NCBI RefSeq assembly: GCF_018977255.1
Contig: NW_024704742.1
Span: 3,968,001 to 4,032,000, forward strand
Direction: 5' to 3'
From: Callorhinchus milii
Lineage: Eukaryota
Length of the DNA: 64,000 nt
Below the pieces are notes generated by a model. The model saw nothing but the letters and a program-made list of their open reading frames with translations. It was not told where the DNA came from and did no database searches. Shown in pieces: positions 1-43,999 of the stretch (position 1 is the stretch's first letter; the number at the start of each line of letters is the position of its first letter). The position numbers and the translations under genes are program-made.

Positions 1-3000
1 GTACCAAAGGCAAGGATTATTTTAGTCCATCCTAAGGAGGAAGTGGGTTGAAACATCTTTTATTGATATCGGTGCAACAGCAATTACACTGTGAACCCTT
101 TTGTATTTTTCTGACCACATAATATAAAGGCTCCACGAAGTTCAATGCATTACTTTAAAACAAATATTTAGCCAAAATGAGAAAGTATAGTATAGGTATT
201 GCACAACCGAGGCAAGAAATATAATGGTGCAACACAAGCCTGCAATTAATTTTAGTTTTTTGTAACAAAAGGAATTTTATTTCACAAGGTAATCTCTGTT
301 TATTGAATCATTCCAGAATTCTGCTTTGGGCTGTATTTTATATTCTCTACTACTCTGTTGTTTTATACAATATTCCCCACAAAATATACAGTCAATTCAC
401 TTTACAGTACAATCTGTGAAGTGGTTTGAGACGCCTCGAAGACGTAATGATTATTGTTATTATTATAATATTGAAGTATCAGCCACTAGCATCAGATGCA
501 TCAATATCATTAATAACTAGAATAACAAGTCGAACAATTTCAGTTGCTAACCTGCTCGCTCTCGCCTCTTGAATCCGAAAGTTGTGGGTTCAAGACCCAT
601 GTCGAGACACGAACTCACAGTCCAGGCTGACACTTAGTATGGCATTTTTGGAGACCCATCCTTCAGGTGGCATCTCCAATTGTCCTGGCCAGTGTCCTGG
701 CCAACAATCTCCCCCGATAAAATGGGTCATTCACTTCATAGCTGTTTGTGGGACGCTGCGTGCAGAAATTGTACGTACAAAATACACAGTCACTACATTT
801 TACAGTAAATCCTGTGAGAAACATGAGAGTAACTCGGCTCATGCAGTCGAACTTCACTCTAACGACCCCTCTCGGGACCAGGAGAAAAGATTCCATCGTG
901 GTATCCATAAGAACGCAAGAATTTGCTAGGTCAACAACAACAGCAACTTGCATTTATACGGCGTATATAGTGCTTTATAGGTCAAGGAAGACCCAGGTCC
1001 ATCCAGTTCGCCTTCCACTATTATGGCAATCGCATTCACATGACATGTCCCAAACGACACACTGTTTATATTTGGCAAAAATTTTGAGGAAAAGTGCGGA
1101 CAAATTCGGTAAAAATTGCGGAGGGTTGATTGGTGCTGTTGAGAAACACATTCTGTGAAACAACCTGGATTAAAACTAAAGGCATATATATCTCCTGAAC
1201 ATGCAGTTATGCTTAAAGTACTAAAAATGTTTGATATGAATGCAATACAATTACAAAAGTGTTCCAACCACTAAGCTACAGGACTCCACATATATCCGAC
1301 TCCTTCATGTTAATTCTGCTGAACACAAGCCAGACAGAATCTGGAGCAAAACGCTTCAGCCACCTTTGCCTCTTGTCGAATCATTTATAAACCCGAGGAG
1401 CAGCTCCCACTTCAGCCATCATCATCATCATCATCCTCCCCTGAGGAAGAGCCCCTATTTGTCACAAGTGGGTTGTTTTGAACGAATTTCCGCAATGACA
1501 TGACAGAACCCAGTCCCATGAAGGTGACAAGTGAGCTGTTAAGGAACAACGAAAACCACAGCAGGTTTACCCTTAAATAAGATATTAGACTGATCCTGTC
1601 GATGTATTGAGTTCCATCTCTCATTTATTTGTTGTCTTTATCCGGAGTGAAAATAAAGTAGTTCAGCACAATAGGGCTTATCACATTAGTGAAAGGATAG
1701 TGTGGGATATGTAATATAAATCCCATAATATCCCCCATGGGGTCGTGGTGGAGGTGGCGGTGTGTGTGCGGGGAGGGTGTGGTTGGGGTGGGGCTGGGGG
1801 TGGGGGTTTACGTGCGTGAGGTGAGGGTCTCTGCTTGGAATCGAGCCTCAAACCCTGGATGCTAAAATTTAAATAGCCAAAGGAATACAAACGAATTTGT
1901 ATTTCCAAGCACTTCTGTCTGGGATCCCACTGAGTTATTTAGAAACTCAAGTGCGTGTGTGCGTGTGTGTGTGTGTGTGTGTTAAAAAGAAGTTATTTGC
2001 TGCCATCACTGCTCACGGCAGAGGGCTGGAATAGGTTCGTGATGCTTTAGATTCAGGCTGCCTTTGTTGCCAGCTAATTCTATTGACTTCAGTTCGTCCA
2101 CGTGTACCAGGAAGAAACGATAGGATATTAACTACTTCTTGCCAATAAAAAAAAATGAAAAGGACGCCACACATTGCCTCTCTTCTTCAGGTTTCCTGCA
2201 GCCCCAGCTTGTCCTTCACACCCAGTGCCAGATGGGGAGTGAGAGCTGATGCAGTTCTTTGTACTGGAAACCCCCAGAGCTTAGTTTGCAGGTTACAGGT
2301 TACTGAGGCCCTCATGAAAAATTCAAAGCTGACTTAACAAGCAGACTGAAAGTAAACATGTCACTTTATCCACCCTCCCTCTTAGCCAGGACAGTACCGT
2401 GACCGACACGCAACAGGTCTTTAAATGGAGAATGCGCTTGCAGTTTGCTATCTCCCCCCCCCCGCCACCACCACCCCCCACCCCCTCTCTCTCTCTCTCT
2501 CTCTCTCGCGTTGATGTAACCAGCTCTGAATAAGAAATCGACTTTCACAGTCAGGAAGGAACAATAGTGACAACAGGGCTAATATTCGCTGTAGCAGAAC
2601 GCTGGTCAGGCAGGTTCAATTTTATTTAGTTGAAGAGCCCGTTTCCGAAACTGCACTTAAAAAAAATAATAGCCTGGCAAGTCCAAAGTTAAAAGGGGGG
2701 GGAAAAAAAGCAGCGAACGACCTAAGGTGACGATAATCCTGTCTGAACTGTTTTTGTTTTCAGTGGGTCTGCGGTTCTGAGCAGCCTTGCTGAAAAATAA
2801 TAGTTTTTTTTTCTTGTTTTGCAATAGGTTTTGCAACGAAATAAACAATTAAATAAATGAATAAATAATCACATAAACTGGTGCATGCCAGGATCCATTG
2901 GCACAATGGTGCAAAAGGATGATAAACAACATAATAAAGATGTGCCATTCTCCGTTATAACAGGCGTGCATAACCATGTCGAAAGCATGTATTCTAATTA

Positions 3001-3469
3001 GGGGAGAGAACAAAGACCCATTAAATTATTCAACTGCCCAAACATGATTACCTAGTTACTTCGGGGGGTGGTCGAAGCATCTGGTCAGCAGTGGAGGGTG
3101 GGGAGTGAAAGCCTCTGTCCAAACCAAGGACACAGCCTGATGCCCAACGTCACTCACAGAGACAGGCGTCGTCCTTGTCATGTACCAAATATTACCATTA
3201 TTCCAAAGGGCCTTTCAGCTTTGTATCACACTGACATGCATTCAGTCTCGGAAGAAAGAAATTCCATATATTTTACATATGGACTATGTGGTATTTATGG
3301 ATTACTTGCCCCCCCCAACCCTCCTCCATACACACACACACATCATTGGATATTCATAGCTATTACAAATACTTAGTGTTGTTTTCTCTTTCTTATCCGA
3401 AAATAATGCATGCAACAATGATGAGTTGTTGATAACAATGATCGCACAACAGTTATGGTGAATCTTTAT

Positions 3470-4035
3470 AAAACACTGGTTAGGCCTCAGTGAGAGACTG
3501 CGTTCAGTTCTGGGCCCCAAACTTTAGGAAGGATGTCAAGGCATTGGAGAGGGTACAAAGGAGATTGACCAGGATGGTACCAGGAATGAGGGACTTCAGT
3601 TATCAGGAGAGGCAGAGAAGCCGGGATTATTCTCATTGGAGCAGAGAAGGTTAAGAGGAGACTTCATAGAAGTTTTCAAAATTGTGAGGGGATTCGAATG
3701 GGTGAACAAGGAGAAACTATTTCCACTGGCGGGTGGGTCGGTAACCCGAGGACACTGATTTAAAATAGTTGATAAAATAAAAGAAACAGGAGAATTTTTT
3801 TCACGCAGCGAGTTGTTCGGATCTGGAATGTGTTGCCTCAAAGGCTGGTGGAAGCCAAGTTGATAACAACTTTTAAGAGAGAAGTAGATAATTATTTGGA
3901 GAGGACAAGTTTGCAGGCCTATGGGGAGAGCGCGGGGGGAGTGAGATTGAATTGATAGCTCTTTTCAAAGAGCCGACACAGATACGATGGGACGAATGGC
4001 CTCCTTCTGTGCTGTATAACTCTATGATTCTATGA
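3470..4035 (+). mobile_element. CR1 LINE 3' fragment (ORF2 end plus 3' UTR)
   Basis: Degenerate LVRP..YCVQFW.P..RKDVKALERVQRR.TRMVPGMR motif typical of the CR1 RT C-terminus; terminal CTATGATTCTATGA repeat. Confidence 0.85.
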
Positions 4036-4252
4036 CAACAAGTTATTTCTTGAGAAAAGTTACACCTCATGACATTGCAGACACCTCGAGGTCAGATTGT
4101 TGCCCTCTAATGACTCCCAGCTACTATAATCCACCTTCAAATAAAAATACGGCCACAAAATAGCCAGACCTACAACAACAACTTGCATTTATATCGTACC
4201 TGTCATGCAGGGTAGCGTCCCAGAGCGCTTGATAGTTGGGGAGCATGATGCC

Positions 4253-4425
4253 GATAATAATAATCCTTGCCTTTGATATAGCGCTTTTCACATCTTCGAG
4301 ACGTCTCAAAGCGCTTCACAGAATATACTGTAAAGTGAATTGACTGTATATTTGTGGGCGAAATGCGGCGGTCAATTGCGCACAGCAATGCCCCACAAAC
4401 AGTCGAGGCTTGAAGTGACCAATTT
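4253..4425 (-). mobile_element. SINE 3' part (similar fragments at ~375-465, 5140-5235, 5590-5695, 11060-11230, 12300-12430, 22835-22955, 39745-39952, 40310-40533, 60770-61030)
   Basis: Matches the family core and tail in reverse orientation. Confidence 0.75.
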
Positions 4426-7400
4426 AATAGGTAGGACCTGGGTATTCCTCCTGCTTTACACTTACAGCTTGAAAATTCCAATTAACATCCATTCACTGAT
4501 TTTGAAACCGAAAATAGCATTGCATCTTAATCTTACAGAGTTATATCACACAGAAGTCAAATTAACCCACTTTCAGACATTATCAGAATAAAATGCAAAT
4601 TCAAAAATACTGTACTGTTGAGTATCTTCTTGACCTAAAACAAATCAATCGCTATGTATTGTGCAACAGAAGTCCAAGTGTTACTCATTAAATCATTCAT
4701 ATCAAAGTACTGTGACTCATAAGAAAAAAAACTACACTATAAATTTATGAATGCTGAACAATATTCTCTCGATTTAAATAGTCATATGTTATCGAGACTG
4801 TCCTGATGTCCCCTTGTGGTTTTTTTCTTCGGTGGAATGGATGCTGGAATCCACAGGAACACATTTCTATGCGAGTACTGATTCAATTAACTTATTGAAA
4901 TCCCGGGGTCGTTTGGTTGTGGTCAATATGTGTGTGTAGATGAGTGTTTATGTGCAAAAGAGAGAGAAGGGCGGGTGAAAGAGAATGTGGTTGTGCATTC
5001 AGCGTATTGTTTAGGTAAGATTATACGTGACTCTGAGACAGTAAAGCTCAGACTAGAGCAAGTAAATAAAAAACTATTAGTAAGGAAGTAAAATTAATTG
5101 TATTCCAAAATCATTTCATGTAACTATATATTGGTTATAGTAATAATAATCCTTGCATTTGATATAGAACCTTTCACCTGGGGAGGACATCTCAAAGTGC
5201 TTCACAGGATTTACTATAAAGCGTAGTGACTGTATGCTTCCAGCTAAATATGGTGATTCTTTTTCTTATGCCTTTAAAAATGGGAAATCCCATCACAAAA
5301 ACGTCGCGAAAACAAATCGCCAGTTTTCACACTTAGTGAAACAGAAAGGAGACAGTGTGAGAGTTCGCACAGTACTGCAGAACCTAAAGGAAGTGTACAA
5401 AAAAAAACTTTATCTTTCTTTTTGAGTGTTTGTCCCACAAACAGTCTTGGATTGAGCAACCAAATTATTATTTTTTAAAGTTTATTTTTATTTGAAAGGA
5501 TTATTACTCCCAGAAAAGCGATCTGCCAATCGACTAACAACCTATTGTTATTAACAGTCGGATTAACCTAATCCTAGTAACAGTTAGGTAAACAGGCATA
5601 TGTAGTAAGGAAATTTGTTTTGTTTTGCTCAGAAATCAAACCCAGGTCCTCTCACTTGCGAGGCGAGTGCTCTAACCAATACGCCACAGGACTCACTACC
5701 CAATGAGGACATAGGGTCACATTGCCAGGGAATCAGGTCCTGACAATCACCTCAAGGTGACCTTTAAGCCAACTCCATGGAAGTTTGAATATCCTCGAGC
5801 AGTGAGGAGGAGGAGTGCTGAAACATCCCACTGTGCTCATAACACCAACCAAAGAGGTGAACTGATGCAACAACTGTGCCCTTTGCACTAACACACACAC
5901 TGTTAAACCCACACATCCCAGTGTCTAGCATCTGTACATGTGAGGGTAAGCTCTCTCACCTGTTTTCTTGGTGGGAGGAATGAGGGATCAGCACTCTGGC
6001 TGTTTTGCACGCTGATGTGTACCATCTATCTGCACCGGTCTATGGATATCTTCAAGCAGTTGGTTGCCACCCTCCTTAGGACTGTACAGAGACATCTTCC
6101 TCTCAGGCCACGATGACTTGTTTCTGCAACTTCAAAGACAAAGATGAAGATATCTAAATATATATTATGTATGTAATTTATCTCAAAATCTGCGGACAAA
6201 AGTCTTCACTTGGGTTTTTTTTTCTCTAACTCCCACAGAACCTGGGATTACCGAACCATTCCTCATCGATCATCTCTCGAAAAACATGGGATCAGTCTTA
6301 ATGCTCTCCTCTGCATTGCCTCTTTACGTCTTGGAGATGAAAGCTCAGAGCTGATCAGAACACTGTACAGTTGCCAACAGTGTCAAGCGCTTTGAGACAT
6401 CCTACTGATGTGCGAGGTCCTATATAAATGTAAATTGTATTGTATAGTTTGAGCATGACACCTGGGGATTTAAATTCAATTAATGTCACCATGTAGCCCA
6501 ACATCCTGTAAGCCTGAGCTATTACTACCTCACACTGATTGGATGTGTTGCGTCAATCAGCACCTCTAAGGCTCTTTCACCTCCCCCTTGGCAAGTTCAT
6601 TTAATGTAATTGTAAGAATGTCCCTTGTCGATAAATTTCTGTTTGCTGCAGTCGGGGGTTGTCCCAAGGCACTGAACAGTCGGGGGAGTGAAGGGAACGG
6701 GCAGGTTTGTGGGTATTTGCTATATGCAGTACTATATTTGTCTGCAGTAACCAGAAATATGTCGAGTCAACCAACCAAACTGTTCTGCAGTGGATTCCTG
6801 TAGGTGAATGCTAAATGGATTTCGTATTAGATCCAATGCGCTCCAGTAGAGTAATGTAGGTCCATAGTCCAGCAACAGTTACCAGACAGGTTTCACCCAC
6901 TTGCCATTTTTTCCACTTTATTGCAAGCACCATTTCTGAATGCCGACGGAAAAGAGGTCATTAGGTTGTGATTGCCATTGCCGCGCGTCGTAGCTGCCTT
7001 TTCTGGTTGAAGCAAATCTGCTAGCAGTACTTTGCTATTGCCACAAGGGACCCGCTGCGCTATCCATTGCCTGCGAAATAAACAAAATCTAAAATTACTC
7101 CGTTTCCTAAGGTCGGCTCCTTTTTAGGTGTCTTTCATGAAAACAAGCACAAGAGTCTGCCGGAGATGAATCAAATTCACAGCGCCACACGTCAAGAGCT
7201 ATTCACTTAATGAAACTCTTTAATAATTTAAGATTTTTTTTCATTTTGCTAAGCTTGTGTAGCTTATGAATCGCTGCCATTTTTCTCGTTTTCAATGTGT
7301 TCATTGTCGTATAACTTAATCCCCTAGTAAAATGGACAAGGCTGCTTTTTGCAGCTCACTATTGTATGCTGAATAAATAATTGATAAGTGATAACTTTCG

Positions 7401-7937
7401 GTTGTAGTCTCTCCCCTTCGATGTTTTATTGCTCTGTCTCACTGGAACTTTCCTCCTGCTACTCATCTTTGTTTACATGCAAGGTATCACTTACCTGTTG
7501 TCTTTCATAATTCTACGAAATAAAATCTGCAGCGAAGGCAGGACGAGTAGATGCGAAAGCTTTGGGTATTTCCTCCTATCAAGAACTTCTCACTAAGCCT
7601 TTTATTTCGCACAAAAGCGGTTAAGATTACGATAAAAAAAAATTGAGCATTTTTACACCAAGTTAACTCGAATTAGCAGACTTGTCATTGATGTTCCTTC
7701 AGCTGGTGCTAACAACACATTACATTTTGCAAGGCTGCCTTAATAGGTCGGTTATGCCACATAGTCCTCATACACTCAAGGTGTCTGTTCACCAATACAT
7801 ACTTCATAGAATAATCGTACAATTGGTAAGTATTAACCCAAATCCACTAAACTAAATATAAATGAATAGAAATCTTCATTTTAAACAAAAAATAAACATT
7901 TCTAACTGGAAATTTTCTCCCTCCCAACATGCCCCAG

Positions 7938-8040
7938 TTCTGACGAAGGGTCGTGGACCCAAAACGTCGACGCACTTTCCTTTCTGTATAGATGCTGCCT
8001 GACCTGCTGAGGGTTCCCAGCCACTTCTGTTTTCATTTCT
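7938..8040 (+). mobile_element. Penelope-like element terminal fragment with a decayed hammerhead motif
   Basis: CTGACGAAGGGTC-GTG-GACCC-AAAAC-GTCGAC followed by AGATGCTGCCTGACCTGCTGAG, a sequence I recall as abundant in cartilaginous-fish Penelope-type repeats. Confidence 0.6.
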
Positions 8041-8079
8041 AATTGGAACTTGTACTGTCAATGCTGTTTAATCTTTTGG

Positions 8080-8736
8080 ACATTTCAAGTGCATTCCTCT
8101 CTGGTCTCTTCAGTTCTACAATCCACAAACTCCAACTTATCCAAAACTCCAACCTGCACCAAACTCCACGTGTCTATCACCCTGTCCTCACCAAGCTCCA
8201 AGGTCCTTACCCTCACCTATTATTCCCTTCACACCCGAACACCTGACCCCATCACCCCCACCATCGCCCGGCTCCACTGGCTCCCCATCCCTCAGAGGAT
8301 AGAATTCAAAATCCTCATCCTCACTTTCAAGACCCTCCATGGCCTTGCCTCCTCCTACCTCTCTGTCCTGCTGACCCCTGTCAACCTGTCCGCTCCCTCT
8401 GCTCAGCGGGCTCTGGCCTGCTCCAGGTCTCCCGGCCAACCCGCCCTACCATCGGCAGCCGGACTTTCAGCGTCTCTGCTCCCACCCTTTGGAACTCCAT
8501 CCCATAGTTCCTTCGCCTCGCTCCCTTCCCTCCATTGCCTCCTTCAAGGCATGACCTAAGACCCTCCTTTTCGACTGTACCTTCAACCGCCCTCCTACGC
8601 CCTCTGCCCTCCCTCATCCCAACCTTGCCCCCTCCCCCACACTCGGGCCCTGATCCCTGACTGTTCAGCGCCTTGGGACGTCCTCCCAACGTGAAAGACG
8701 CTTTAGAAATGTAATTTTGTTGTTGTTGCTGTTGTT
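8080..8736 (+). mobile_element. L2 LINE 3' fragment
   Basis: ORF 8050..8559 contains PITPTIARLHWLPIPQRIEFKILILTFKTLHGLASSYLS (L2 ORF2 C-terminus); tail AGCGCCTTGGGACGTCCTCCC...(GTT)n. Confidence 0.88.
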
Positions 8737-9623
8737 ATCTTGTTTATCACCACCTCCCCCCCTTCCTCTGCTCAGCTAAGATGGGCTTTCCATGCGTTTC
8801 CCCAGCCCCTCCGCACAACCGGGCCTAACCTCCAGAACTCCCTCCTTCTACATCTTCGTATGTCTTCAAGCCCCACCTTAAAACAACAGCACCAACTTAT
8901 ATTTATATAGCGCGGTTCACACAGCAGAGCATCTTGGAGCGCTTAAGCTTAGCGCCTAACACTTTGACCGTACCTATAGCCGATTCGCTTCCCCTCCCCT
9001 CCCCTGCTCGGCATCCAACCTCATCAACATAACGTGCTCTGAGATGTTACCTTACGTGAAGAGAGCTATATAAATGCACGTTGTTGTCATTCCTCTATTC
9101 TTTCGTTATTTGAACTTTGATTGTTGCTATTTTCTTTACCTATTTTAGCCTGAGACCTATCACGTACTCTTCCGATCCTTTCTTCCTGATCCCATCGCCC
9201 CCTGTGAGAAGTAAGAGCTGGCTGAGTGAAATTATTTACAGTCCTTTAAAAGATAATGGTGTTAAACATTATTTGTGAACTGTTCCAGTGGAGTTGGCCA
9301 GATGCCAGAGTGATCCAAATATTTTTCCAAAAGAATGATTATTTTTTCAGGATGTGCTATTTTTAACACGTTTAATGAGATTGGAGGGGATTAATGGGAT
9401 TCAATCACTGTTAACTGGACCCACGCTATTGTCACAACAACATTCCATCATGTTCAAATAATAGTAATAATAACCCTTATATTTGATATAGTCCCTTTCA
9501 TGTCAGGAGGACCTTCCCCTTTTAGCAGGAGACAAACTTGTGTTATTGCACTTGTCTGCACGTTAACTGAGCTCCCAGGTTCAGAACCTCTTGTCCAATT
9601 GATTACTTGGAGCGCTGTGGTGT

Positions 9624-9992
9624 GGAGTCCTGGAGCTCAGTGGTCAGAGCACTCATCTCACAAGCGAGAGACCTGGGTTCGATTCCCAGGCAGGGCAAAA
9701 CCTGAGGCAACTTTCCTTACTCCACACGCCTCTGTTTACCTAGCAGCAAGTAGAAACCCGATTGTTGGTTAATTGGCAGATCACTTTCCGGGGGTAATAA
9801 TCCCTTAAAAAAAAAGTGGTCACTCAATTCACGACTGTTTATAGGATACTGTTGTGTGCAAGTGGTTGTTGCATTTCGCCCCCCAAAAAATATAGTCAAT
9901 TCATTTTATAGTAAATTCTGTGAAGCGCTTTGAGGCATTGCAACGATGTGATAAGGCACTATACCAAATACAAGGATTATTAATATTATATT
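9624..9992 (+). mobile_element. Older full-length SINE of the same superfamily
   Basis: tRNA-like head GGAGTCCTGGAGCTCAGTGG...GTTCGATTCCC, diverged core, (ATT)n tail. Confidence 0.8.
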
Positions 9993-12647
9993 ACTTTGGC
10001 TCCTGCTTTTCTGCAGTCACCGGCATAGAATTTGCAGCTTGCGTTCACAGCTCAATTGCCAAGTTGATGGGATGGATTAACCCTGTGCAAATATGAATAA
10101 GTGCCCTTAATTATTTAACTAACAACCAACAAAAAAGGATTCCAGGTGATTCTGTGACACTTTGTATTGGTTCTTAGTAACATAACTGAGTGCACCTGTA
10201 CGTGTTTGAACATAGCTGAACCCAAACCATAAACTTGTAACGTTGAATGAAGTTTTTTTTTTGGTGGTGTCATTCTCTGTTCTTATTTCTGCGATTTTCT
10301 TATAACACAGATTGAGTAGCAGGATCAAAGGTTCATCAGAGGGTTTGTAAGCTGTGTATATTTATGGCTTGAAATCTCTCATGGGCTTAGTGGTCAGATA
10401 GTAGTCTTAAATTGGGGAGGAAATTCTTAATTGCAGTCTAGATTTACTCGACTTCGGTAATCAAAGTATATAATAAGATGTAATGTGGGGGGAAAAAAAT
10501 CAATTTGTGCATGTACCAGGACACGTCTCAGGCTGTCCTCTTGAGCTCTGTTCAAAATGCTGATCTCAAGCTCGACTTCCCTGAAGTCAGGTCACAGCTA
10601 AAGGAGACGTGAGCAATTGGCAAGACCCTGGTGTTTGAGCGGAGTTCCAGCAGGGCAGGCAACATCCAGGAATGTGTCGGATTCACTGCTTCCAAATCAA
10701 TTGGTGACTCTTGCAACACACACACACACACCCACGACAACCTGCACTTAAATGAATTGCTTTCACGTAGAGATTCAGGTCCCTGTAAATCCAGGGAGTA
10801 TCTCACTTCGAAGCCAACAGGTGGTCCGGGTTGTTCCTAGTGTAGAAATGAACTGGTTTATATTATGTAACTCCAGAGCCAATGTAATAATAAGTCACAA
10901 TTCTTTGCCAGAATCTCTCCAGAAAGTTTTTTTTTTTAAAAAACGCAAGGACACTGGCTTGCAGAAGCACTGTGTCTGCAATGTCTTTTTATTTGATTCG
11001 GTGACTCAGATTCAAATAAGATTCTACAAGTCAAATAGCTTGCCGGTATCTCCTACCCAAATAATAATAATCTTTACATTTGGCGTGGCAACTTTCATAT
11101 CAGGAGGACATCCCAAAGGGCTTCCAAGGAAATACGTAAAGCGCAATGACTGTGGTTTTTGGGGGCCAACACAGCACCCAATTTGTGCACAGCAACGTAT
11201 CACAAAACACAAGAACTGAGTGATCAATTTTATTTTGTGGGCGGTGTTGGCCAGGAGAAACTCCCTTCCCTTTGTGAATCATGCCGTAGGATTTTTAACG
11301 TCCACCTGGACAGACAGACAGACAGACGGGACCTCAGTTTAGCATCATATCCGAAGGAGGGTATCTTTGACGATGCAACACAACTGCAACAGGGTGACAC
11401 ACATGCTCACCTGTGAAGAATGGGTTTCGGGGCGAGTCGGGAAGCCTACATTTGTGGAGCTTTACCCCACCAGCATGCGTCAGCGTTGCAAACATTTCTA
11501 CTGCAGTGGGAGCATTCCCTGACCAACTGCGGGGCAAGAATTTTCCAAGCATACTGTTATGGGTTGAAACTTTTCCGACAACTCTGCGCTAAAGTGCTAA
11601 GGCTCCTTCAAACGTGGATGAATTCATTCACCTTTGTGAGTTCCTCCAAATATGCAAAGATCAGTCGTAGACTCCATGACTACCTTGTGCTATCACCACA
11701 GCCTTGGAAACACCTGTCAGCTTAATGAATTACGATCGCGACCGAGTCAGAGGAGATAAAGGACTCCACTTCAATGCAATTACCAATGGATAGAAGAGTT
11801 TATTGCGGGGCGTGCAACTGAATTTGGATCACAAACAAGGAAACTCGTAATAAATGGAGATTAATGCTCGAGGTGTTCCTTTCATGGCAGCCAATGACTT
11901 TTTCAATCAAATGACATGATGACATGGTGTGTTGCTTGCAACACCAATTGTTGCAACAATGCTGTATGACTTACGTGATATGATGAAATACTGTAATTTG
12001 AATATAATCTTTGAAAAAAATCCCAAACCCGTCTTACGCAACAACATAAAATAAAAGTTATTTTCTGAGCTTGCAATAAAGCGTCTGAGGGAGCATAGGC
12101 CAGGTCCCACCCTAAGTTGTTCCTTTGCCAAGCCCCAGTGATGGCTTAACGTTGCTAGTTTTTGCATTGTGTATCTTTCTTTAGTCAAGTATGTGGAAGA
12201 GTCTGAGCTTCCCAGTTCAGCGTCATCATCAAAGCAAGGCTACGATTTACCTGCTGGAGTCGTAAATTCGAAAGATAAAAAATAATTATTTTATTTGATG
12301 TAGTGGCTGCCGGGTTATCACCTGCAAAGTATATAGTCAATTTGCTTTACAGTATATTCTGGGAAGCGCTTTGAGACGTCTCGAAGACGTGATAAGGCGC
12401 TGTATCAAATGCAAAGATTGTTTTTATTATCGTGCCTCAATACATCGTCAATGTCTCAAAGCGCTTCACAGGATTTTACTGTAAGTTATAGTGACTATGC
12501 TTGTAGGCAAATTCAGTTGGTCCTCCCATTGATTGCCCACCCCCCCTCCCCACCCCCCACCCACCTCTCTTCAGAGTCACAAAGACAGCAGCAATCCAGC
12601 ACCAAGTGAGTTAAGATGACCAATGGAAAGGAAATGAGGAGTCCTGT

Positions 12648-12959
12648 GGAGTCCTGTAGCTCAGTGGTTAGAGCACTCGCTTTGCAAGCGAGAGACCTGA
12701 GTTCAATTCCAGGCAGAGGGCAAAACCTTGGGCAAGTTTCCTTACTCCACACAGAGCCTAATAATAATCCCTCCAAAACAATAATAAATTGGTCATTTTC
12801 AATCTACGACTGTTTGTGGGACATTGCTGTGCGCAATTGGCTGCCGCGTTCGCCCACAAATATATACAGTCAATTCACTTTACAGTGTGTTCTGTGAAGC
12901 GCTTTGGGACGTCCTCCCGACGTGAAAAGCGCTATATCAAATGCAAGGATTATTATTAT
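12648..12959 (+). mobile_element. Full-length tRNA-Ala-derived SINE (Deu-type core, L2-like tail; holocephalan SINE2-like family)
   Basis: A box TAGCTCAGTGG, anticodon arm CTCGC-TTTGCAA-GCGAG, B box GTTCAATTCC, core TTGCTGTGCGCAATTGGCTGCCGCGTT, tail GAAGCGCTTTGGGACG...GCGCTATATCAAATGCAAG(ATT)n. Confidence 0.9.
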
Positions 12960-14539
12960 GATGATGAGCCAAAATTATAGGCAAGACTGTGATTAAGCCT
13001 CTGAGTGACCCCTATCAATCAGTCCTGGAAGACAATAAACTTATGCTTAGAACTACAGCATAGAATATTGACTGACAAAGCTGGAAGTGAAATGAACCTT
13101 GGCTAGTGAACCATCAGCAGTTACCCATGACTCTGGTGAGCATTTCAAGGAATAAAGAATTCATATTAAGTGATACTACATCTGTTGTATTTGCTATTTA
13201 TCTGATTACGTCAGGAAACAGCCGTGTTTAGTCAAACAGTGACATCTGTTCCACTGTATTATTTTAGCGCAGAAAGAATTTGAAAATTAAATCACAGCAA
13301 ACACAATACAAATTTACATTTATACGGCAGCTTTAAACTCGGGAAGACACGCCAAGGCGCTTAGCAGTCCTGGCTAGGCACCTGAGCTGGAGGTGGAGAG
13401 GGGGAAGATAATAATCCTTTGATTTGATATTAGCACCTTATCACTTCGTCATTGTCTCAAAGCTCTTCCCAAGATTTTACTGAAAAGTGTAGTGACTGTG
13501 TATTTGTTGGCAAATCCAGTTGGCCCTCCTATTGATTGCCGCCCGCACCCCCGAAAGTGCGGTCAAAGAGGTAGGTCTTGAGACGGACCTTGAACAAGGT
13601 GAGCAAGGGAACAAGTCAGGGGGACTTGGAGATGGATTTCCAGAGAGTACACACAGATAGACCGAAAGCCTGACCACAACAACAAAGCAAAAATATTATT
13701 TTAGAAACAAGGCACGGTAAACATAGAAATATACCTTGGCATAACGATTAATAACGAAAAATAAACCCCTAACGGCCGTCCTCTTCTGTGATCATGAGCT
13801 TTGCGAATGTTGCCCGCTCAAAGGTTTACAGTACTTGCCACAATCGACCACTACCCAAATAATGTAGGGCGTAACAGTTATGCCTCGTCACTGCACAAAT
13901 TGTCTGGTCCCAATGCAAAAAAAAAAAATCTGTTACGAGGACAGGCTCGTCCACGCTGCTGAAAATGTAACGACCTCAGAACAGTCTCATCTACCGCAGA
14001 GTCACAAAGGAATTCAATGGGATTTGTTGGGCACGGACAATGGTAGGTGGCGTTCTTTTTCAGGTTCAGCGGTGGGTAGAATAGAATGAAGCAAACTTCT
14101 GCTGCTGGTGTGTCATTACTTACTGATAGAATGTCCCTTCAGGCACCTGAGACAACAGATGCCAGGCTGGGAGCTCTCCGAGGCTCTCCTCCCCCTTTCT
14201 CTGGAGCCAGCCAACTTTCATTTCTAGAGTACATCTATTTATCTGGCTGTTTATCGGGCAGCTCCTCCTCAGCAGGATTCCGAGCAGGATCCGCGCTTGT
14301 CTCACTTATAAAACATTTACTAGTTTTAAAGATAACACACAGCCCAAGATCCAGGAGCTGATGAGCAGTGTAAGCATTGATGTACTCCCTGGTGTTGCAA
14401 GCATTGCAAACAATTGTGTGTCTAGTTACGAGGAGAGTTGTTGCTGCACTAAGTGTTGATGCCTAGTTGCTAGGATATTTAGTATTGCCCCAGCTATTTA
14501 GATTCAGCAGTCGTTTAGTTCTTATTTTCCTCCAAAACT

Positions 14540-14700
14540 CACTGATAGGCACCCGCGGTCGTGTCTAGTAGTGACAATTTTCGGTAACGATGACTTCACT
14601 TTTGGCCGCTGCTCGTTTCTCTATCAACAACCTCCTAGATTCAGAATACAGTCAAAAGGCACTTGACGGATTTGATCCGGAAGTAATGACGGAGAGGGAA
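14540..14700. promoter_or_regulatory. Candidate promoter (ETS/GABP site CCGGAAGT, two TGACG half-sites, local CpG enrichment)
   Basis: CCGGAAGT at 14677-14684 flanked by TGACGG motifs; minus-strand GTGAGT donor at 14542. No gene product identified. Confidence 0.35.
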
Positions 14701-14820
14701 ACATGGAATGAAAGTTATTTTTATGGAATTGTTTATGTTTTGTAGTACTACTTACAGCGCAGCTGAAAACTAGCACCGGGTATCAACAAAAACTCTGCTG
14801 AAATGTTAGTTACGCAGAAA

Positions 14821-15271
14821 TCCTGGCTCTTGTTTTTTTTTGGTGAGCGAGGATAGATCTGCTCATCCCTATTGACCGAATTAGACCCAAACGTTCCACT
14901 TTGGGAATGAGGGTTGTCCCCAAAGACAAGCCCCAACAACCTGGGAAAGCCCAGCCTGAGCCTGGTGCGCAAGTGCTCAAGCTCGCTCTGCGTTCCAGTA
15001 TCTTCCTCTGTGTGAGGGCAGATCAAGCGCCTCAGATCAGAACTACTGCAATACTGATCCCAACCAATAGAGGGTCGAAAGCATAGTTGTAGCGAGAAGC
15101 TCATTCCTTCTTATTTTGCCCCAATTATGGGTGAGATTCGATCGTGAGAACCCAGGCAAGCGAAGCTCAACAGGAGAACTTTTCCGGCATTGCTGGCTCA
15201 AAGAGTAACTGATAAGAACAGATACTACTCCTGATCTTAGCCAAAAAGGCCGAGAAGATGCTCCTGGCTCT
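14821..15271 (-). mobile_element. U2-headed chimeric retroposon with A-tail and 10-bp target-site duplication
   Basis: TCCTGGCTCT occurs at 14821-14830 and 15262-15271, flanking the U2 head, a ~365-nt body and an A9 tail (T run 14833-14841). Confidence 0.7.
15207..15259 (-). pseudogene. U2 snRNA 5' fragment (nt ~1-53)
   Basis: Minus strand ATCTTCTCGGCCTTTTTGGCTAAGATCAGGAGTAGTATCTGTTCTTATCAGTT versus U2 ATCGCTTCTCGGCCTTTTGGCTAAGATCAAGTGTAGTATCTGTTCTTATCAGTT. The Sm site and 3' stems are absent. Confidence 0.9.
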
Positions 15272-16554
15272 CATGCTTCAGCTGTGTGATTGCTACACTG
15301 CACACACTGTTAATGTATTTTGCAACAGCTCCAGACAGATCAGAGACAGATGAGTAGTTTCTTACGGTGAAGGTGAGTGGACTTCCTCAAACCCAGCTCG
15401 CTTTATATTTCGCTAATGTTGTCAATTAAAGATCTTTCAAAGCGATGACACCTTGCATTCATTAATATTAATACAGATATCAAAATCTTTCCAGATATGC
15501 GATGTGCAGTGATTCAAAGTCACAGGTGGGACTGAATCCACATTGGCACAGATAGCATCCTAATCACGGCATTGTGGAAATGGAAGGACACAGCAGTGAG
15601 TAGATATTTGCATACACCAGGGAGAATGGAACAGAGGGGTGTGGTAAATGGTATTAAGAGGGTTAGAGGTTCACCTGCAGTATAAACATAAGCATAGACT
15701 AGTTGGGCCAAATGATCTCTTTCCGTGCTATAACGTCCTACAAACAATAATAATAATAATAATAATAATAATACAAATTCAGTCACTACGTTTCACAATT
15801 AAAATCTTGTGGAGCGCTTGAGTCCACCCGACAACATCATCAGGTGCAATGCAAAATGCAAGGATTATTATTATTAATTTTTTAAATTCTAGATTCTGTC
15901 CTTTCCTTTGTTTCTCTCCCTTTCTCTCTCAATCTTTCTCGCTTTCATCCATTCAGATGGTAGTGCTCCGAGACACCGTCCTGCGTAAGGAGCGCTATAT
16001 AAATGAAAGTTGCTGTTGTTGTCCATTGCAATTCTATACGTAGTAGATTGTAGATGGTCAGTGGAGGGAGATGGGCCTAATGGTCTTTTCTTCCTCTATG
16101 GTTCTTATACAGATTAAACGCCTGATTGGAATTCTTATTTTGTTGAATTAAAAAATTAAAAAATTTCTTCGATACTACACATCGACTGACTTAAAATTTG
16201 TTATAATGCCCCCTCTCAAATATCACATTGTTTGCTAACACCCACTTGATTGTTTGCACTGCAACTTGCCATTTGGGCAAAGTACAAGAGTGTTTAGCTC
16301 CTGTTAGAATGATACTGTACTGTAGGATGGATCAGCCACCTTCAGCCAAAAGGGTTAAAACTTGGTAGGGGAAAATTAACCAAATAATGCATCCATGGGG
16401 GGGATGAACGAACAGAGTACAATGAAATTCCAAGACAGATCTCTGCAGGTCAAGTGATACACAATGCATCAGCATCGACCAAATCTTCCTTTACCGGTTT
16501 CAGTGAAGACACTCTCTACAGTCGACCCTTTGTTTCATTTATTGCTCCTTTAGG

Positions 16555-16945
16555 AGGACTTTGAGCTTACAGTCTAAGGTGACACTCCAATGCAGTGTTG
16601 GGAAGGGGGTTGCTCTATATTTTGGGAGTTGGCCCTCTTTGGACGAGATGCTAAAGTGAGGTCCAGTCTGCCTGTTCTGGTGGACGTTAAAAAATCCCAC
16701 GACACTATACAAAAAGAAAAGGGAGTTTCTCCCAGTGTCTTGGCCAGTCATCACTGAAATAAGATTGGTCACTCACTTCATGGCTGTTGGTGGGACATGG
16801 CTATGTGCAAATTGTCTGCCACATTCGCCTAAAAAATACACAGTCCGCTGCACTTCACAGTTAAATGGATGCGAAATGCTTTGAGCCGTGTTGTCAGTGT
16901 GATAAGGCGCCAAGTCCGATGTGAGGAATATGATTATTGTTATAT
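16555..16945 (+). mobile_element. Ancient Deu-domain SINE (SacSINE1-like) remnant; relatives at ~560-830, 37880-38150 and 58340-58720
   Basis: TGACACTCCAATGCAGTG...GAGATGCTAAAGTGAGGTCC...GGTGGACGTTAAAAAATCCCACG...GTGCAAATTGTCTGCC resembles the DeuSINE central domain as recalled. Confidence 0.55.
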
Positions 16946-19399
16946 TTTGGAATGCAGACCCACCATATTGATCGTCTTTAACAAACCCTCACTTCTCTTG
17001 CGTAGACAACATCGGGAGCTCAGGAGGGCAACTGAACAACCTGCATTCACCCTGCCAATAGCCGTCAGCAAAATACCCCTTCACACACGCGCACGCGCAC
17101 GCTTCAGTTGAAATTGTATGTATTAAAAATAAGCACCATACCAAGGAGTTATTTCGCGACTGTAACGCAATATTGCGGTTCGAGTAACAATTATTGTAGC
17201 CTGATATGAATCCCCTCCACTAACCCTGTCCCAAGCTTGTGAACTGGTCCCATATCAGCTATCACAACACCAGGATGGTGTCCAGTTGAAACCAGTGCAT
17301 GGTGAAGCCACTGAGATCATCCACATGGACTGACTGCCTTGAGGAAACCTCGGTGTGTTTGTCTGCTGGGTCCATCTCAAGGAATATCTCGCGGAGAAAA
17401 AAAAACATAACACTTTTGTCCCTCTCGTGGTTCGATCAGTCCCAAGTTTCTGCATGAGAGTTCAGTAAAAAAAAAACTCTGAAGAGAGTCGCTTTTATAC
17501 GTTGCCTTCTCTTCAATGCTGAACAGTGGGGGGGTGGGGGAGAAAAAGAACACACACACAGACACACGCACACAAAAACACGGGGTTGCTCTTTCCTAAG
17601 AGATATTGACGCACAATAAAAGTCGGTGCATAAAACGACATGGCCTCCCTTTTAAGTGTCACAGGTTCAGGCGGTGTTTGTTTCCATGCGTTGCTGTTTA
17701 AATCAAATACACAAGTATTGCGGCAGTTTTTTGCAAGTGTGTAGAGGCCGGGCAGAGAGGCACTCAAGTCGTTGGCTACCCTTGTGGTACCTCTATCAAC
17801 TCCAGGTATTAAAGTACAACGCCACCGCCCTGCTCCTATCCAAATGTCCCATAATTATGCTTTTAAAAAAGAAAGAGATCGAACGATAGCTACAGACCTT
17901 CACAACATAAAATATACATGGAGATTTCCAAAAGGCTGCAGATAACGTTCGACTGATTCATTATTCATGTTGTCTTCCCTGTGTTTTTTTTTATATATTG
18001 CACAATATAAACGTATAACACTTGGAACGCATTGACGCATTCGACCATATATATATATATGTGTGTGTGTACACGTGTGCGCGTGTGTGTATATATATAA
18101 AAAATATTAAACTGGTTGCATTAATTATTGATGTTTAACGATCTGCATGATTAAGAAAGCGGTCGCTGTAGGTGAGTGTGTGTGTAACGTGAAGGGTTTT
18201 CTTTTTCTCCCTTCTGTTTATTGTAAAAGTCACTTGGCCCTTGTTCTTTTGTGAGGCTCTACATTGATTTGACACGCGTGAAGCCCACATGAACAGTGGA
18301 AAGGACAAACGCCAATCTCACCAGCCATTCTCCAGCATTCATTCGTTTAGTCTTATTATTTATTGTCTTGGAAGCCAAAAGGCCATTCATTTGCAGGGCA
18401 AATTTGCACGTTTCGACTTAACTTTCCTCACTCGTTTCTTATCCTGTCTTGGTTTTTTTTATTTATATATATATGCATATAAATGGTCAGGCAGAAAAGT
18501 ACACAGAGAAAATACACGCGTCTGTGACTGCTTTCACGTTCACAGTATAACTGAATTCCTAGTACTTTTGTTGCATTAAAGCAAATGGGTACATAATTAT
18601 ATATTTATATAGATTTAAAAAATGCATCAGTGTTAAAGAGGCGATTTCGTTGCTTCGTGGTATTTTGTTTTAATCCACCAGGTAACCAGGAAATAACTCC
18701 CTCCGGCAAACACACCTTGGTAAAAGTCAACAAAAAAGTCACCCAGGTGCGAATAAATCATTGCTCTGTGGTGGCAAACAATCTATTGCAACTCACCAGG
18801 AGGAAGAAGAAGGAGGAGGAGGAGGAGGAGGAGTGGGAGCTCACAGTTATCTGACAAACTAGCTTTATGGAAGCTTTGTGTCTCAGAGTGTGTACAGGTG
18901 CCATTGAATCTGGGGGAAGAGACAAGAGCCTGTTGTACATTACACTCTTGACAGTTCTGCAAGGGGTGGGGGGGGGGGGAGTAGTCCAGGAAATTCTGGA
19001 GTCTCTAGAGAGAGAGTGAGAGAGAAATAAAAGGTTTTTTTTTCTCAATCTGATTTGTTTTTTTTCTCTCTCTCCCAAGAGAGGGATTTTTTTTAAAAAG
19101 AAACCCCAATGAATTTAATAAATAATACCCCCACCCCAACCACCCGCCGCTCCACCCAAAAAAAAATGTGTGACTGGCCAGTTTGATCAATGGTCAAGTA
19201 AATTTACGTGGAAGAAGGTTGGAGAGACAGAGGCTGAGAGCACTTGTGAGCAGTGCCTTCCTGCGGTCAATTCAATACAGAGCGGTACAATATAAAGCGG
19301 ATAACGTTTCCATCCTCAAGTCTCCTTTTTTTGTCAACCAGAACAATGTGTTGGATTGTGGTTCGGTTTGCAGAGAGAGGGAGTGAAAAAAAAGTGTGT

Positions 19400-25489: not shown

Positions 25490-25516
25490 CTGAAAAGGTG
25501 CTAAACCACAATTAGC

Positions 25517-25841
25517 GGAGTCCTGTAGCTCAGTGGTTAGAGCACTCGCTTTGCGAGCGAGAGACCTGAATTAAATTCCAGGCAGAGGGTGAAACCTTGG
25601 GCAAGTTTCCTTACTCCACACAGAGCCTAATAATAATCCCTCCAAAACCAAAAACAATAATAAATTGGTCATTTTCAATCCACGACTGTTTGTGGGACAT
25701 TGCTGTGCGCAATTGGCTGCCGCGTTCGCCCACAAATATACAGTCAATTCACTTTACAGTGTGTTCTGTGAAGCGCTTTGGGACGTCCTCCCGACGTGAA
25801 AAGCGCTATATCAAATGCAAGGATTATTATTATTATTATTA
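25517..25841 (+). mobile_element. Full-length SINE of the same family (duplicate at 42021-42341)
   Basis: Near-identical to 12648-12959. Confidence 0.9.
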
Positions 25842-26771
25842 CCAACACATTACTCGGAAGTAACCTGTGTGCATCTGCGTGGCGCTGACACACACTTAAA
25901 ATAGGTAGTAAAGGAGAATTTGTTCCCTCTCCCTGGTGAAGAAGCCACGAGCAATGCACGTTTGCACAGTTCCGATCGCAAGTAATGACTCTCTCCACTC
26001 CATTGAGAAATGCTTCGTGAACCGCAGATCAAACGAGAGGCAGTCCTTTTGTCCTCGACTTGGTCCTTTTGTTGCCACCCCCCACCCCACCCCCACCCCC
26101 CAGTGAATCAACTCAGTCCCCCACACCCCACCCCACCCCCCAGTGAATCAACTCAGTCCTCTTTTGACACTTGCACTAAAGTAATCTACAATTTCAGTCC
26201 CTGGTGTCACAGAAAAGTATGGTCCACACACTCAAAAGTTAATTAAATAGGTCACTTTTTTTAAAAACAAAGGAAAGGGAAAAAAAATGTTTTGCCTCGA
26301 ACGAACGAACGAACGAACGAACCGTTTGCCCATTTTTTCTCCTTGTTAAAAAAAAATGAACTTATTTTAAATATCACAGTTTTCGTTTCGATAAGGAAAT
26401 CGTTCTCATCCCTCGTTGTCGCCATCGATGCGTCTCAAAGCGCTTCTAAGGAATATACTGTGCAGTGAATTGACTGTGTCTGTGTCTGTGTGTGTTTTGT
26501 GTGTGTGTTTTTTTGTGGGCGATGAGTTTTCGTCTCCAAATCGATTTCCTTGGGTTTTTTTTTTTGCTGTGGGTTTATCTCAGCCCCACTGATGGGTGAA
26601 GTGGAGAGATTCTCCTTCAGGTAATAGCGTCGGGACTTCGGAAATACGCACTCGAAAAAAAGTCGGATTTTAACCCACTATTCGCCGATGCGCCTCGAGG
26701 TTTAATTTCGCCCGAAACGTTTCGTTCGCACATCCACAGCACTGACGATGGATTGGGTGAAATAGTGGTCC

Positions 26772-26834
26772 TTTATTTGAAATAAGTCACGACACACACG
26801 GGCTTTCATTTTTTTTAAAAAAGATGTATTTATT
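26772..26834 (-). terminator. Candidate atoh1 polyadenylation signals (two AATAAA on the minus strand)
   Basis: TTTATT at 26772-26777 and 26829-26834, about 1.2 kb past the atoh1 stop codon at the end of a U-rich 3' UTR-like tract. Confidence 0.4.
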
Positions 26835-27463
26835 TAGTCCAAAAAAAATCTCCTGCCTTCCTCCCAACCCCCAACCCCCCCCCCCCCCAAAAAAAAAGGA
26901 GAAACAGTACATAAACCAATAGCAAAAAGTTGCTAACAATAATAATAATTAAAAAAACAACGTTTCGTTCGTGTTCTTTTTAAAAAAAACAAAGGGAAAA
27001 AAAAGATTTCCAGCTCACACACCAAAAAAAACACAGGTACAAAAGCGAACCAAAGCACATACATTGGCTGGAGAGGGAGAGAGAGAGAGAGGAGGATGGA
27101 GGAGGATGGAGGAGGAGAAGGAGAAGAAAAAAAAGGACCACACAGTGTCAGCAAATAAATAATTCTACCTTTTCACTTTGCCAAAAAGAGGAAGAAAAAT
27201 AAGACATATAAATTCCCACTGGAAGACAGAAGGTTTGACACAACCGAATGGAAAATACCTACACACACACTCTCTCTCTCTCTCTATTTATACACATATA
27301 TATATATAAACACATATATATATATTTGAAAACACCCCCAATTGCAGGTGAACTCTCTTTAAATAGTCAGCTCAAAGGATTGGCAGTTTCAACGTCGCTA
27401 TAGGTCGTGGGTTGGGTTTAAAGTGCGCGCATTACAAACAAAAAAAGGATTACAACAACATCA

Positions 27464-27505
<42 letters not shown>

Positions 27506-27975
27506 GGAATCCGTATAAAAATTAGCGATTTTTTTTTTCGTTTGGGAATACATTATTACTATTATTACTATTTATTATTATCATTATTAAGACGACCCAA
27601 AAATAGTTCTATTAGCATTCAGCGTTCATAGCAAATACAAAAACAGCAAAACCAACACCCCCCCCACCACCACCCAGTCACCCCCACCCTCCCACCCAGT
27701 CACCCCCACCCCCACCCAGTCACCCCACCCCACCCCCACACAAATGGATGGAAGACTAAGTTCAATTCTAAAACGTTTCACTTTCTCTTTTTTTTCTTCT
27801 TTCCTTTGCTTTTTATGTGTGTGGGTGTGTGATGGTGGTGGTGGGGGGGGGTATGTGTCTGGGTATGTGTGTGTGGGGGGGTATGTGTGTGAGGGTATGT
27901 GTGTGGGGGTGTGGGTGTGGGGGGGGGGGGGGTATGTGTGTGAGGGTGTGTGATGGGGGGGGTGTGGGTGGGATG

Positions 27976-36200: not shown

Positions 36201-36330
36201 CCATTACGCCCAACCTCGGGAACTCCCCCCAATCCCTCGGCTTCGCCCCTCCTTCTCCTCAACCCCCACCGAAGGACCTACATCTTCAACTGCAACAATG
36301 GTCACTCCACACGAATGGCCGGTGGGCAAT

Positions 36331-36840: not shown

Positions 36841-36871
36841 GGTGTTGGCTCAGAGGTCAGTCAGAGCCGCC

Positions 36872-38766: not shown

Positions 38767-38772
38767 AATAAA
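38767..38772 (+). terminator. Probable tomm5 polyadenylation signal AATAAA
   Basis: AATAAA ~270 nt after the stop codon, followed by GT/T-rich sequence; also present in copy 2 (~54293). Confidence 0.55.

Positions 38773-43967: not shown

Positions 43968-43999
<32 letters not shown>

What the first reader, a model, noticed from the sequence alone, without database searches (positions are those of the whole stretch)
14821..15271. U2 snRNA-headed, A-tailed retroposon with a 10-bp TSD: possible undescribed U2-derived SINE or chimeric retrocopy
Seen (minus strand): AGAGCCAGGA, then GC, U2 nt ~1-53 (branch-point recognition GTAGTA retained), ~365 nt of non-U2 sequence unrelated to the other repeats I can see here, A9CA, and AGAGCCAGGA again. 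Known: snRNA-LINE/mRNA chimeras arise by template switching during target-primed reverse transcription; U1/U2-headed SINEU families exist in crocodilians; Keno (Tx1) and Utopia elements target U2 genes. Inference: this is one insertion of a fused U2 + unknown RNA. It may be a member of a U2-headed SINE family in cartilaginous fish, a U2-targeting element derivative, or a one-off chimera. I do not recognise the body, which carries a 118-codon minus-strand ORF (14748..15104).
Basis: partly seen in the sequence, partly recalled or inferred. Interest (0 to 1): 0.75.

Follow-up and report, generated by a model that had tools for sequence, protein, structure and literature searches.

The report
U2-derived SINE-like retroposon family copy
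This is one inserted copy of a dispersed repeat family whose members begin with the front end of the U2 splicing RNA, likely a short mobile element of a kind so far reported in print only from crocodilians, here in what is probably a cartilaginous fish.

Summary
The architecture is real: an exact 10-bp duplication (14821-14830, 15262-15271) brackets a 431-nt minus-strand insert with a U2 5' head (48 of 51 columns match fish-type U2; GTAGTA kept) and an A9CA tail. It is not a one-off chimera. In DNA contigs of the same species the flanks are single-copy, while 18-22 other contigs cover the head/body junction, the middle and the 3' end; 7 DNA contigs carry head and downstream pieces in order. 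The body is not wholly non-U2: it keeps U2 stem-loop IV, and the letters other copies carry there are the U2 letters. Majority letters also restore hairpins, so the master RNA was likely structured. Best reading: a dead copy of a SINEU-type family born from a remodelled U2 gene, likely inserted by an L1/Tx1-type LINE. Whether the master was a selfish SINE or a host variant-snRNA gene is open. A U1 origin of the 3' half, a Keno/Utopia origin and the ORF found no support. Nine literature searches found no such element in cartilaginous fish; Repbase and Dfam were not available. This scan noted U2-headed SINE-like elements in other genomes (e1-7834116, e1-7596276), both lacking the branch-point region kept here.

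The parts
15262..15271 (-). 5' copy of the 10-bp target-site duplication AGAGCCAGGA
   Evidence: sequence; chance 8 of 20,000
15258..15261 (-). el 1-4, occupying the place of U2 nt 1-4 but different in sequence
   Evidence: alignment to fetched U2 genes starts at el 5
15207..15257 (-). U2 5' head (U2 nt 5-54): stem I, branch-point recognition GTAGTA (15228-15223), 5' arm of stem IIa; contains a T5 run
   Evidence: 48 of 51 columns against L131, L194, L183; Rfam RF00004; T run
15060..15206 (-). family-specific middle (el 56-202) standing where U2 has stems IIa/IIb, the Sm site and stem III; includes a predicted long hairpin at el 93-130 (15169-15132); no canonical Sm site in this copy
   Evidence: 22 contigs in X1 and 21 in X2 share one letter at el 60, past the U2 match; local fold -8.0 kcal/mol in this copy, -17.9 with majority letters; U2 homology here is not significant alone; Sm scan
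15035..15059 (-). U2 stem-loop IV-like hairpin with ATTGCAGTA loop (el 203-227)
   Evidence: Rfam alignment; own U2 3' model hits 15036-15058, 10.7 bits, E 0.88; the only BLAST hits of the body in 207 loci are U2 stem-loop IV, best 19 of 21, E 0.044; other copies carry the U2 majority letter at el 207, 219, 223
14842..15034 (-). 3' domain of unknown origin (el 228-420), multi-copy, several predicted hairpins, ending in a predicted terminal hairpin (14868-14842)
   Evidence: 20-22 contigs at each of 14866, 14870, 14874; terminal fold -7.6 in this copy, -11.4 with majority letters; U1 origin not shown
14831..14841 (-). A9CA tail
   Evidence: sequence
14821..14830 (-). 3' copy of the target-site duplication
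   Evidence: sequence

Best explanation
The 431-nt insert is one copy of a dispersed, U2-headed, A-tailed repeat family in this genome, likely a SINEU-type non-autonomous retroposon that arose from a remodelled U2 snRNA gene and was likely pasted here by a LINE enzyme. Shown: duplication, head, tail, single-copy flanks, about twenty or more related loci sharing the head/body junction, and U2 stem-loop IV inside the body. Inferred steps: (1) a U2 gene copy acquired a new middle and a ~190-nt 3' extension while keeping the 5' domain and stem-loop IV; (2) the master was transcribed by polymerase II from a promoter outside the element (an snRNA-type or flanking promoter), because the T5 run in the head would stop polymerase III and no A box was found; (3) the A-tailed RNA was captured in trans and inserted by target-primed reverse transcription, giving the 10-bp duplication; an L1/Tx1-type LINE fits better than L2/CR1, since the tRNA-SINEs of this window end in ATT repeats instead; (4) this copy has no promoter of its own and is decaying. 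The head is far closer to U2 than the 3' U2 remnant, which either constraint or repeated re-addition of fresh U2 5' ends (described for SINEU) would explain.
For: Duplication beyond chance. Summed contig depth in X1 is 11.6-13 in the flanks and 55-606 in the nine element bins; X2 shows the same pattern (depth is not a copy number). Shared letters stand in 18-22 X1 contigs at 14866, 14870, 14874, 15039, 15043, 15068 and 15202. The el-60 letter is not the one fish-type U2 has in that column (alignments), so those contigs are not plain U2 copies. 8 of 15 joints shown (18 in all) tie a head piece to a downstream piece in order on one contig, 7 in DNA run X1; one reaches the 3' end and also appears in X2 and X7. 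At el 207, 219 and 223 the other copies' letter is the U2 majority letter (16, 17 and 14 of 20 real U2 genes). Fourteen majority letters improve the predicted fold from -138.8 to -147.4 kcal/mol; 1 of 300 random same-type sets did as well; z -2.85, 0 of 150 shuffles. CpG-decay letters at 25-31% of depth at el 271, 384, 385 fit old methylated copies. SINEU elements have U1/U2 heads, poly(A), occasional ~10-bp duplications and length under 500 bp (PMC4494074).
Against: No full-length second copy was seen: pieces are 80-160 nt and what lies between joined pieces is not known. The middle (15084-15181) has far fewer related contigs (depth 55-78), so members differ there. With the head removed, U2 homology is weak: no Rfam hit, no HMM hit, pairwise z from -0.4 to 3.1, own model E 0.88 and ranked sixth of 20 matches. 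The fold of this copy alone is unremarkable (z -1.19). The majority letters come from 35 element rows shown, with 83 rows hidden, and the fold test was chosen after seeing them. Three minority letters near the loop (el 215, 217, and 198) do not move toward U2. No partner LINE was identified, no empty site was seen, and nothing shows that copies gave rise to further copies, which is what separates a SINE from retrocopies of one gene. Some of the 16 contigs ending at the U2 5' end may be ordinary U2 pseudogenes.
Confidence: 0.65

Rival explanations
1. The copies are processed pseudogenes of one host gene for a long variant U2 snRNA (about 420 nt) that is or was functional; the family is a by-product, not a self-propagating SINE.
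For: The branch-point region and stem-loop IV are kept; majority letters restore hairpins, including a 3'-terminal one directly before the A tail; no internal promoter found; the number of related contigs seen is only in the tens. One related sequence with intact CpGs around stem-loop IV appears in two runs guessed to be RNA from two studies (X7 record 30, X12 record 9). PMC7245038 (passage) notes that small-RNA retrocopy sets can be mistaken for SINEs.
Against: This copy has no canonical Sm site. The sequence in the two RNA-guessed runs has no listed head piece, changes a loop letter that is invariant in 20 of 20 real U2 genes (el 215) and, in X12, leaves the family sequence after el 256, so it may be a fragment in another transcript. 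Indels and uneven sharing of the middle suggest several structural forms. Only contigs at 80% or more to this old copy were laid, so the count is a floor.
Confidence: 0.2
2. Independent template-switch chimeras: U2 5' ends were added, once here or many times, to an existing headless repeat during reverse transcription.
For: The head is much closer to U2 than the rest; repeated 5' addition of U1/U2 sequence is documented for SINEU (PMC4494074); notes on this genome list other RNA-LINE chimeras (unchecked).
Against: 22 contigs share sequence past the U2 match at el 60, and head pieces run to el 55-71, pointing to one inherited junction; the body holds U2 stem-loop IV in the U2 order. A strictly one-off event with a single-copy body is excluded.
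Confidence: 0.08
3. A derivative of a U2-targeting retrotransposon (Keno or Utopia) inserted in a U2 gene and re-mobilised with its flanks.
For: U2 resumes at nt 39 after these elements and reptile Utopia makes 20-bp duplications (PMC4640811 section 6), which would leave an upstream U2 piece ending near nt 58, close to the junction at nt 54-56.
Against: No second copy of U2 from nt 39: best match 12 of 17 at el 193-209, and two letters of other copies (el 194, 207) move away from it. No coding remnant in the one long ORF.
Confidence: 0.04
4. The 118-codon ORF is a real small gene.
For: It is the second-longest ATG-started ORF in window 1-19,000.
Against: It crosses the tail, the duplication and the flank; 4 ATG-started ORFs of 100 codons or more occur in those 19 kb; no Pfam match; no homologue among proteins of 64-207 residues; other copies have frame-changing indels in it (table 4).
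Confidence: 0.01

Closest known systems
SINEU-3 of crocodilians (Kojima 2015, PMC4494074; parts 1-4 of 5 of the text read, supplements not available)
   Same: Built from U2 with a 5' piece and a downstream U2 piece in order, followed by a non-U2 3' part and poly(A); multi-copy; internal T run and no recognised internal promoter.
   Different: SINEU-3 is about 170 nt, keeps only the first 32 nt and loses about 50 nt after them (so, by inference, the branch-point region); this element is 431 nt, keeps U2 to nt 54, replaces and enlarges the middle and adds about 190 nt. SINEU-3 sits in Mariner-N4_AMi; these flanks are single-copy at 80% likeness. The paper found no SINEU outside crocodilians.
SINEU-1 (U2-headed subfamilies such as SINEU-1J, 1F, 1C/H) and SINEU-2 (same paper)
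   Same: U2 head plus a body of unknown origin, poly(A), occasional ~10-bp duplications, under 500 bp.
   Different: Here the body itself retains U2 stem-loop IV. SINEU-2 is U1 followed by U2; a U2-then-U1 layout was tested here and not shown. Sequence comparison with SINEU bodies was not possible.
Keno (Tx1) and Utopia U2-targeting retrotransposons (PMC4640811; passages and section 6 read)
   Same: U2 5' sequence lies directly upstream of foreign sequence.
   Different: They are coding elements inside U2 genes with U2 resuming at nt 39; here there is no coding region or resumed U2, and the whole unit has its own duplication at a non-U2 site.
snRNA retropseudogenes and snRNA/L1 template-switch chimeras (as summarised in PMC4494074, discussion read)
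   Same: snRNA-derived 5' end, poly(A), target-site duplication.
   Different: Those are independent events with variable junctions; here about twenty loci share sequence across the junction.
CmiSINEs and SacSINE1-CM of the elephant shark (PMC5499810; passages read)
   Same: Short non-autonomous retroposons, probably of the same kind of host.
   Different: They share an L2-derived tail; the paper has no occurrence of snRNA, SINEU or Tx1. The element matches none of the tRNA-SINEs in the window.

Membership tests
SINEU class (snRNA-headed SINEs) | 5' head derived from U1 or U2 snRNA | tested here: met
   48 of 51 columns against fish-type U2; Rfam 48.3 bits
SINEU class (snRNA-headed SINEs) | short (under 500 bp), non-coding, 3' poly(A) | tested here: met
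   431 nt, A9CA; ORF unsupported
SINEU class (snRNA-headed SINEs) | signs of LINE-type insertion (about 10-bp duplication) | tested here: met
   exact 10-bp repeat, 8 of 20,000 by chance; shown for this copy only
SINEU class (snRNA-headed SINEs) | dispersed multi-copy family with shared structure, not a sum of independent chimeras | tested here: met
   18-22 contigs at diagnostic sites, shared junction letter, 8 of 15 shown joints link head to body; from contig pieces, not whole copies
SINEU class (snRNA-headed SINEs) | copies can act as masters (subfamilies), as opposed to retrocopies of one gene | tested here: inconclusive
   uneven variant frequencies and indels but no copy sequences for a tree; no genome held
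SINEU-1/2/3 families proper | sequence homology to the crocodilian consensus bodies | not testable with these tools
   no Repbase; supplements unavailable
SINEU-1/2/3 families proper | insertion preference for Mariner-N4_AMi | tested here: inconclusive
   flanks single-copy at 80% likeness and unrepeated in the window; one locus only, older repeats would be missed
SINEU-1/2/3 families proper | mobilisation by Tx1-Mar | not testable with these tools
   no partner LINE sequence at hand
SINEU-3 | U2 5' 32 nt followed by a ~50-nt internal deletion | tested here: not met
   U2 match runs to nt 54
SINEU-2-like U1/U2 fusion | a recognisable U1-derived segment | tested here: inconclusive
   no Rfam hit, no HMM hit, no hit with own U1 model, filters off; pairwise z 0.8-2.7
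Keno/Utopia insertion in U2 | U2 sequence resumes at nt 39 downstream of the insert | tested here: not met
   best 12 of 17; site from PMC4640811 section 6
functional U2 snRNA gene (this locus) | Sm site, stems IIa/IIb/III and upstream promoter elements | tested here: not met
   no Sm consensus in the element and no octamer in 300 nt upstream (PSE itself not modelled); duplication and A tail mark a retrocopy

The most novel reading that the evidence does not exclude
This genome encodes, at another locus, an expressed ~400-nt variant spliceosomal RNA that keeps the U2 catalytic and branch-point domain and stem-loop IV but carries a new structured middle and a 3' domain ending in an Sm-like site and terminal hairpin (possibly a heavily diverged U1, i.e. 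a U2-U1 fusion); the dispersed copies are its retropseudogenes.
Probability: 0.1. Interest if true: 0.85.

Novelty: new variant of a known kind. Interest (0 to 1): 0.52.

Why it matters
The paper defining SINEU found none outside crocodilians and left open how such elements are transcribed without an internal promoter (PMC4494074). A family in a cartilaginous fish, with a different layout (U2 expanded rather than deleted, branch-point region kept), would be a likely independent origin in a second vertebrate lineage. It offers a direct test of that open question: finding the master locus would show whether an snRNA promoter or flanking read-through drives it. An A tail with a 10-bp duplication also points to an L1/Tx1-type partner in a genome described as dominated by L2 and CR1 (PMC5381603, passage). 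If the master is a working variant snRNA, the interest is much higher.

Tried and rejected
Own genome not held, so no genome-wide BLAST or copy extraction. Run search: no RNA holder listed; 5 of 24 listed rows hold the stretch, all one organism label, 2 studies; this says nothing on expression or on other species. Empty site: no joint skipping the element among the 15 of 18 joints shown for X1 and X2; contigs show presence, not absence. Exact-pattern scans for relatives found 0 matches in viral contigs and metagenome contigs; plasmids gave 2 chance hits, E 0.4. Earlier scan notes had no look-alike by sequence. U1 origin of the 3' half (a lead from recalled resemblance): tested with 93 distinct U1 sequences from 119 loci; cmscan, nhmmer and a 36-sequence model found nothing; pairwise scores were weakly above shuffles (12-28 and 4 of 500; 30-263 of 1000), so not claimed. 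U2 homology of stem III and the Sm region: not significant alone; one search used gap costs too cheap to be informative. For the U2 profiles 20 of 35 distinct fetched sequences were used; near-duplicates, broken copies and non-U2 matches were left out. A B-box-like 9-mer at el 119-127 has no A box and is expected by chance about one time in five by my estimate; rejected as a promoter. ORF: rejected. Literature: searches (listings and abstract starts) showed no snRNA-headed SINE in cartilaginous fish; Repbase Reports, Dfam and subscription journals were not searchable, and the SINEU supplements could bear on sequence similarity.

Full report
Observation. On the minus strand the window reads: 10-bp repeat (15271-15262), four non-U2 letters, U2 nt 5-54 (15257-15207), a 365-nt body, A9CA (14841-14831), the same 10-bp repeat (14830-14821). 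The 10-mer occurs only at these two places; a comparable repeat arose in 8 of 20,000 random pairs given 5 nt of slack each side. The head matches three vertebrate-like U2 genes, fetched as contaminants in bacterial assemblies, at 48 of 51 columns with GTAGTA intact. Positions written el count from 15261.

Setting. The window holds a bHLH gene (PF00010) that looks like ATOH1 (name from recall) and tRNA-headed SINEs ending in ATT repeats. Earlier notes call this a chimaera or elephant-shark genome; I did not test that.

It is a family. Four runs were laid on 14300-15740 at 80% likeness. The locus itself is covered by overlapping near-identical contigs in both DNA-like runs (X1 records 1 and 3; X2 records 18 and 20), crossing both junctions, so it is not an assembly artefact. 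Summed depth in X1 is 11.6-13 in the flanks and 55-606 over the element; the tool warns that this is no copy number, so I rely on contig counts. Shared differences from this copy stand in 20, 22 and 21 contigs near the 3' end, 19, 21 and 18 around stem-loop IV, and 22 at el 60 (21 in X2). El 60 lies five letters beyond the U2 match, and the shared letter is not what fish-type U2 has in that column, so these are family members with the same junction. Of 15 joints shown (18 in all), 8 link a head piece ending at el 55-71 to a piece further down in the same order, 7 of them in X1; one reaches the 3' end and recurs in X2 and X7. Listed pieces differ from this copy at roughly 12-20% of letters, and CpG-decay letters are common, so the family is old. 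Limits: pieces only, most table rows hidden (83 of 123 differences, 986 of 1018 pieces), human-like contigs may have been dropped, and about half of the 461 records laid in X1 belong, by my estimate from depth, to an unrelated repeat at the right edge.

The body is partly U2. The Rfam U2 model aligns 1-192 over 15261-15021 and places stem-loop IV on el 203-227. Taken alone this is weak: without the head Rfam finds nothing, HMMs of the U2 3' part find nothing, and my 3'-domain model scores the hairpin at E 0.88 over 128 kb, sixth of 20; restricted to the 360 nt behind the head that would be about 0.003 by simple scaling. Two further results support it. The only BLAST hits of the body among 207 fetched loci are U2 stem-loop IV (best 19 of 21, E 0.044). 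And at el 207, 219 and 223, where this copy departs from the majority of 20 real U2 genes, the other copies carry the U2 letter. Homology of the Sm and stem III region is visible by eye but not significant.

The master was likely structured. This copy folds no better than shuffles (z -1.19). With the 14 majority letters visible the predicted energy goes from -138.8 to -147.4 kcal/mol; 1 of 300 random same-type sets did as well, and z becomes -2.85. The gain lies in a hairpin at el 93-130 and in the 3'-terminal hairpin; stem-loop IV itself does not gain (-12.3 to -10.1). This is prediction on a partial letter set chosen after inspection.

What failed. The 3' half reminded me of U1. With 93 distinct U1 sequences neither profile nor covariance model hit it, and pairwise scores were marginal. 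Keno and Utopia leave U2 resuming at nt 39 (PMC4640811); no such copy follows. The ORF crosses the insertion boundary and has no family or homologue.

Mechanism. Most likely a U2 gene copy was remodelled and extended, transcribed by polymerase II from outside the element (the T5 run argues against polymerase III, as Kojima argued for SINEU), and its A-tailed RNA was inserted many times by a LINE enzyme, probably of L1/Tx1 type. All of these steps are inferred; the products are shown. The main open point is whether copies became masters (SINE) or all derive from one host gene (variant snRNA). A related sequence occurs in two runs guessed to be RNA, from two studies, with contigs ending 192 and 194 nt upstream of 15110, but it lacks a listed head piece and alters an invariant loop letter, so it is only a lead.

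Comparison and novelty. It works like a SINEU and meets the class features that could be tested, except master competence, which is inconclusive. It is not SINEU-3 (no deletion after nt 32), and homology to SINEU-1/2 bodies could not be tested. The defining paper reports none outside crocodilians (parts 1-4 of 5 read). Passages of PMC7245038, PMC4758252, PMC5381603, PMC5499810 and PMC7922186 and nine searches added no case in cartilaginous fish; Repbase and Dfam were not available, so a catalogued entry cannot be excluded. Unchecked scan notes report U2-headed elements in other genomes that lack the branch-point region.

Verdict. Real; a copy of a multi-copy U2-derived retroposon family; new variant of a known kind; interest 0.52.

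Noticed in passing
window 25490-41968 versus 41994-57499: A ~16-kb block containing the bHLH (ATOH1-like) gene appears twice in tandem at 95-98.5% identity, joined at a 25-N gap (41969-41993); probably both haplotypes assembled in series rather than a true duplication.
   Followed up: partly
runs X7 record 30 and X12 record 9, matching window 15006-15110: The same family-related sequence appears in two RNA-guessed runs of different studies with the highest listed depth over the element, intact CpGs around stem-loop IV, a changed loop letter, and contig ends 192 and 194 nt upstream; could be a source gene or a fragment in another transcript.
   Followed up: partly
window 9627-9990, 12648-12965, 25517-25840, 42021-42340, 57493-57795: tRNA-headed SINE copies with ATT-repeat tails, some about 94% alike, plus many tail fragments.
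   Followed up: no
window 15623-15773: A high-copy repeat tail next to an (AAT)n run, 350 nt upstream of the element; summed depth up to 2915 in X1.
   Followed up: no
window 36331-36839, 37016-37779, 47458-48225, 61286-62272: Minisatellites (27-bp unit, C-rich units, 21-bp unit) around the bHLH gene.
   Followed up: no
L120-L205, e.g. L120-L130: 86 stretches of bacterial genome assemblies hold the U2 motif, many as tandem arrays of complete U2 genes at about 1.4-kb spacing: eukaryotic host contamination in those assemblies.
   Followed up: no
L029 and L037: Loci fetched for U1 also carry a U2 motif within a few hundred bases, i.e. linked U1 and U2 genes.
   Followed up: no
L207:248-442 (-): A viral-collection contig holds only the first ~40 nt of U2 followed by unrelated AT-rich sequence, near the Keno/Utopia site.
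   Followed up: no
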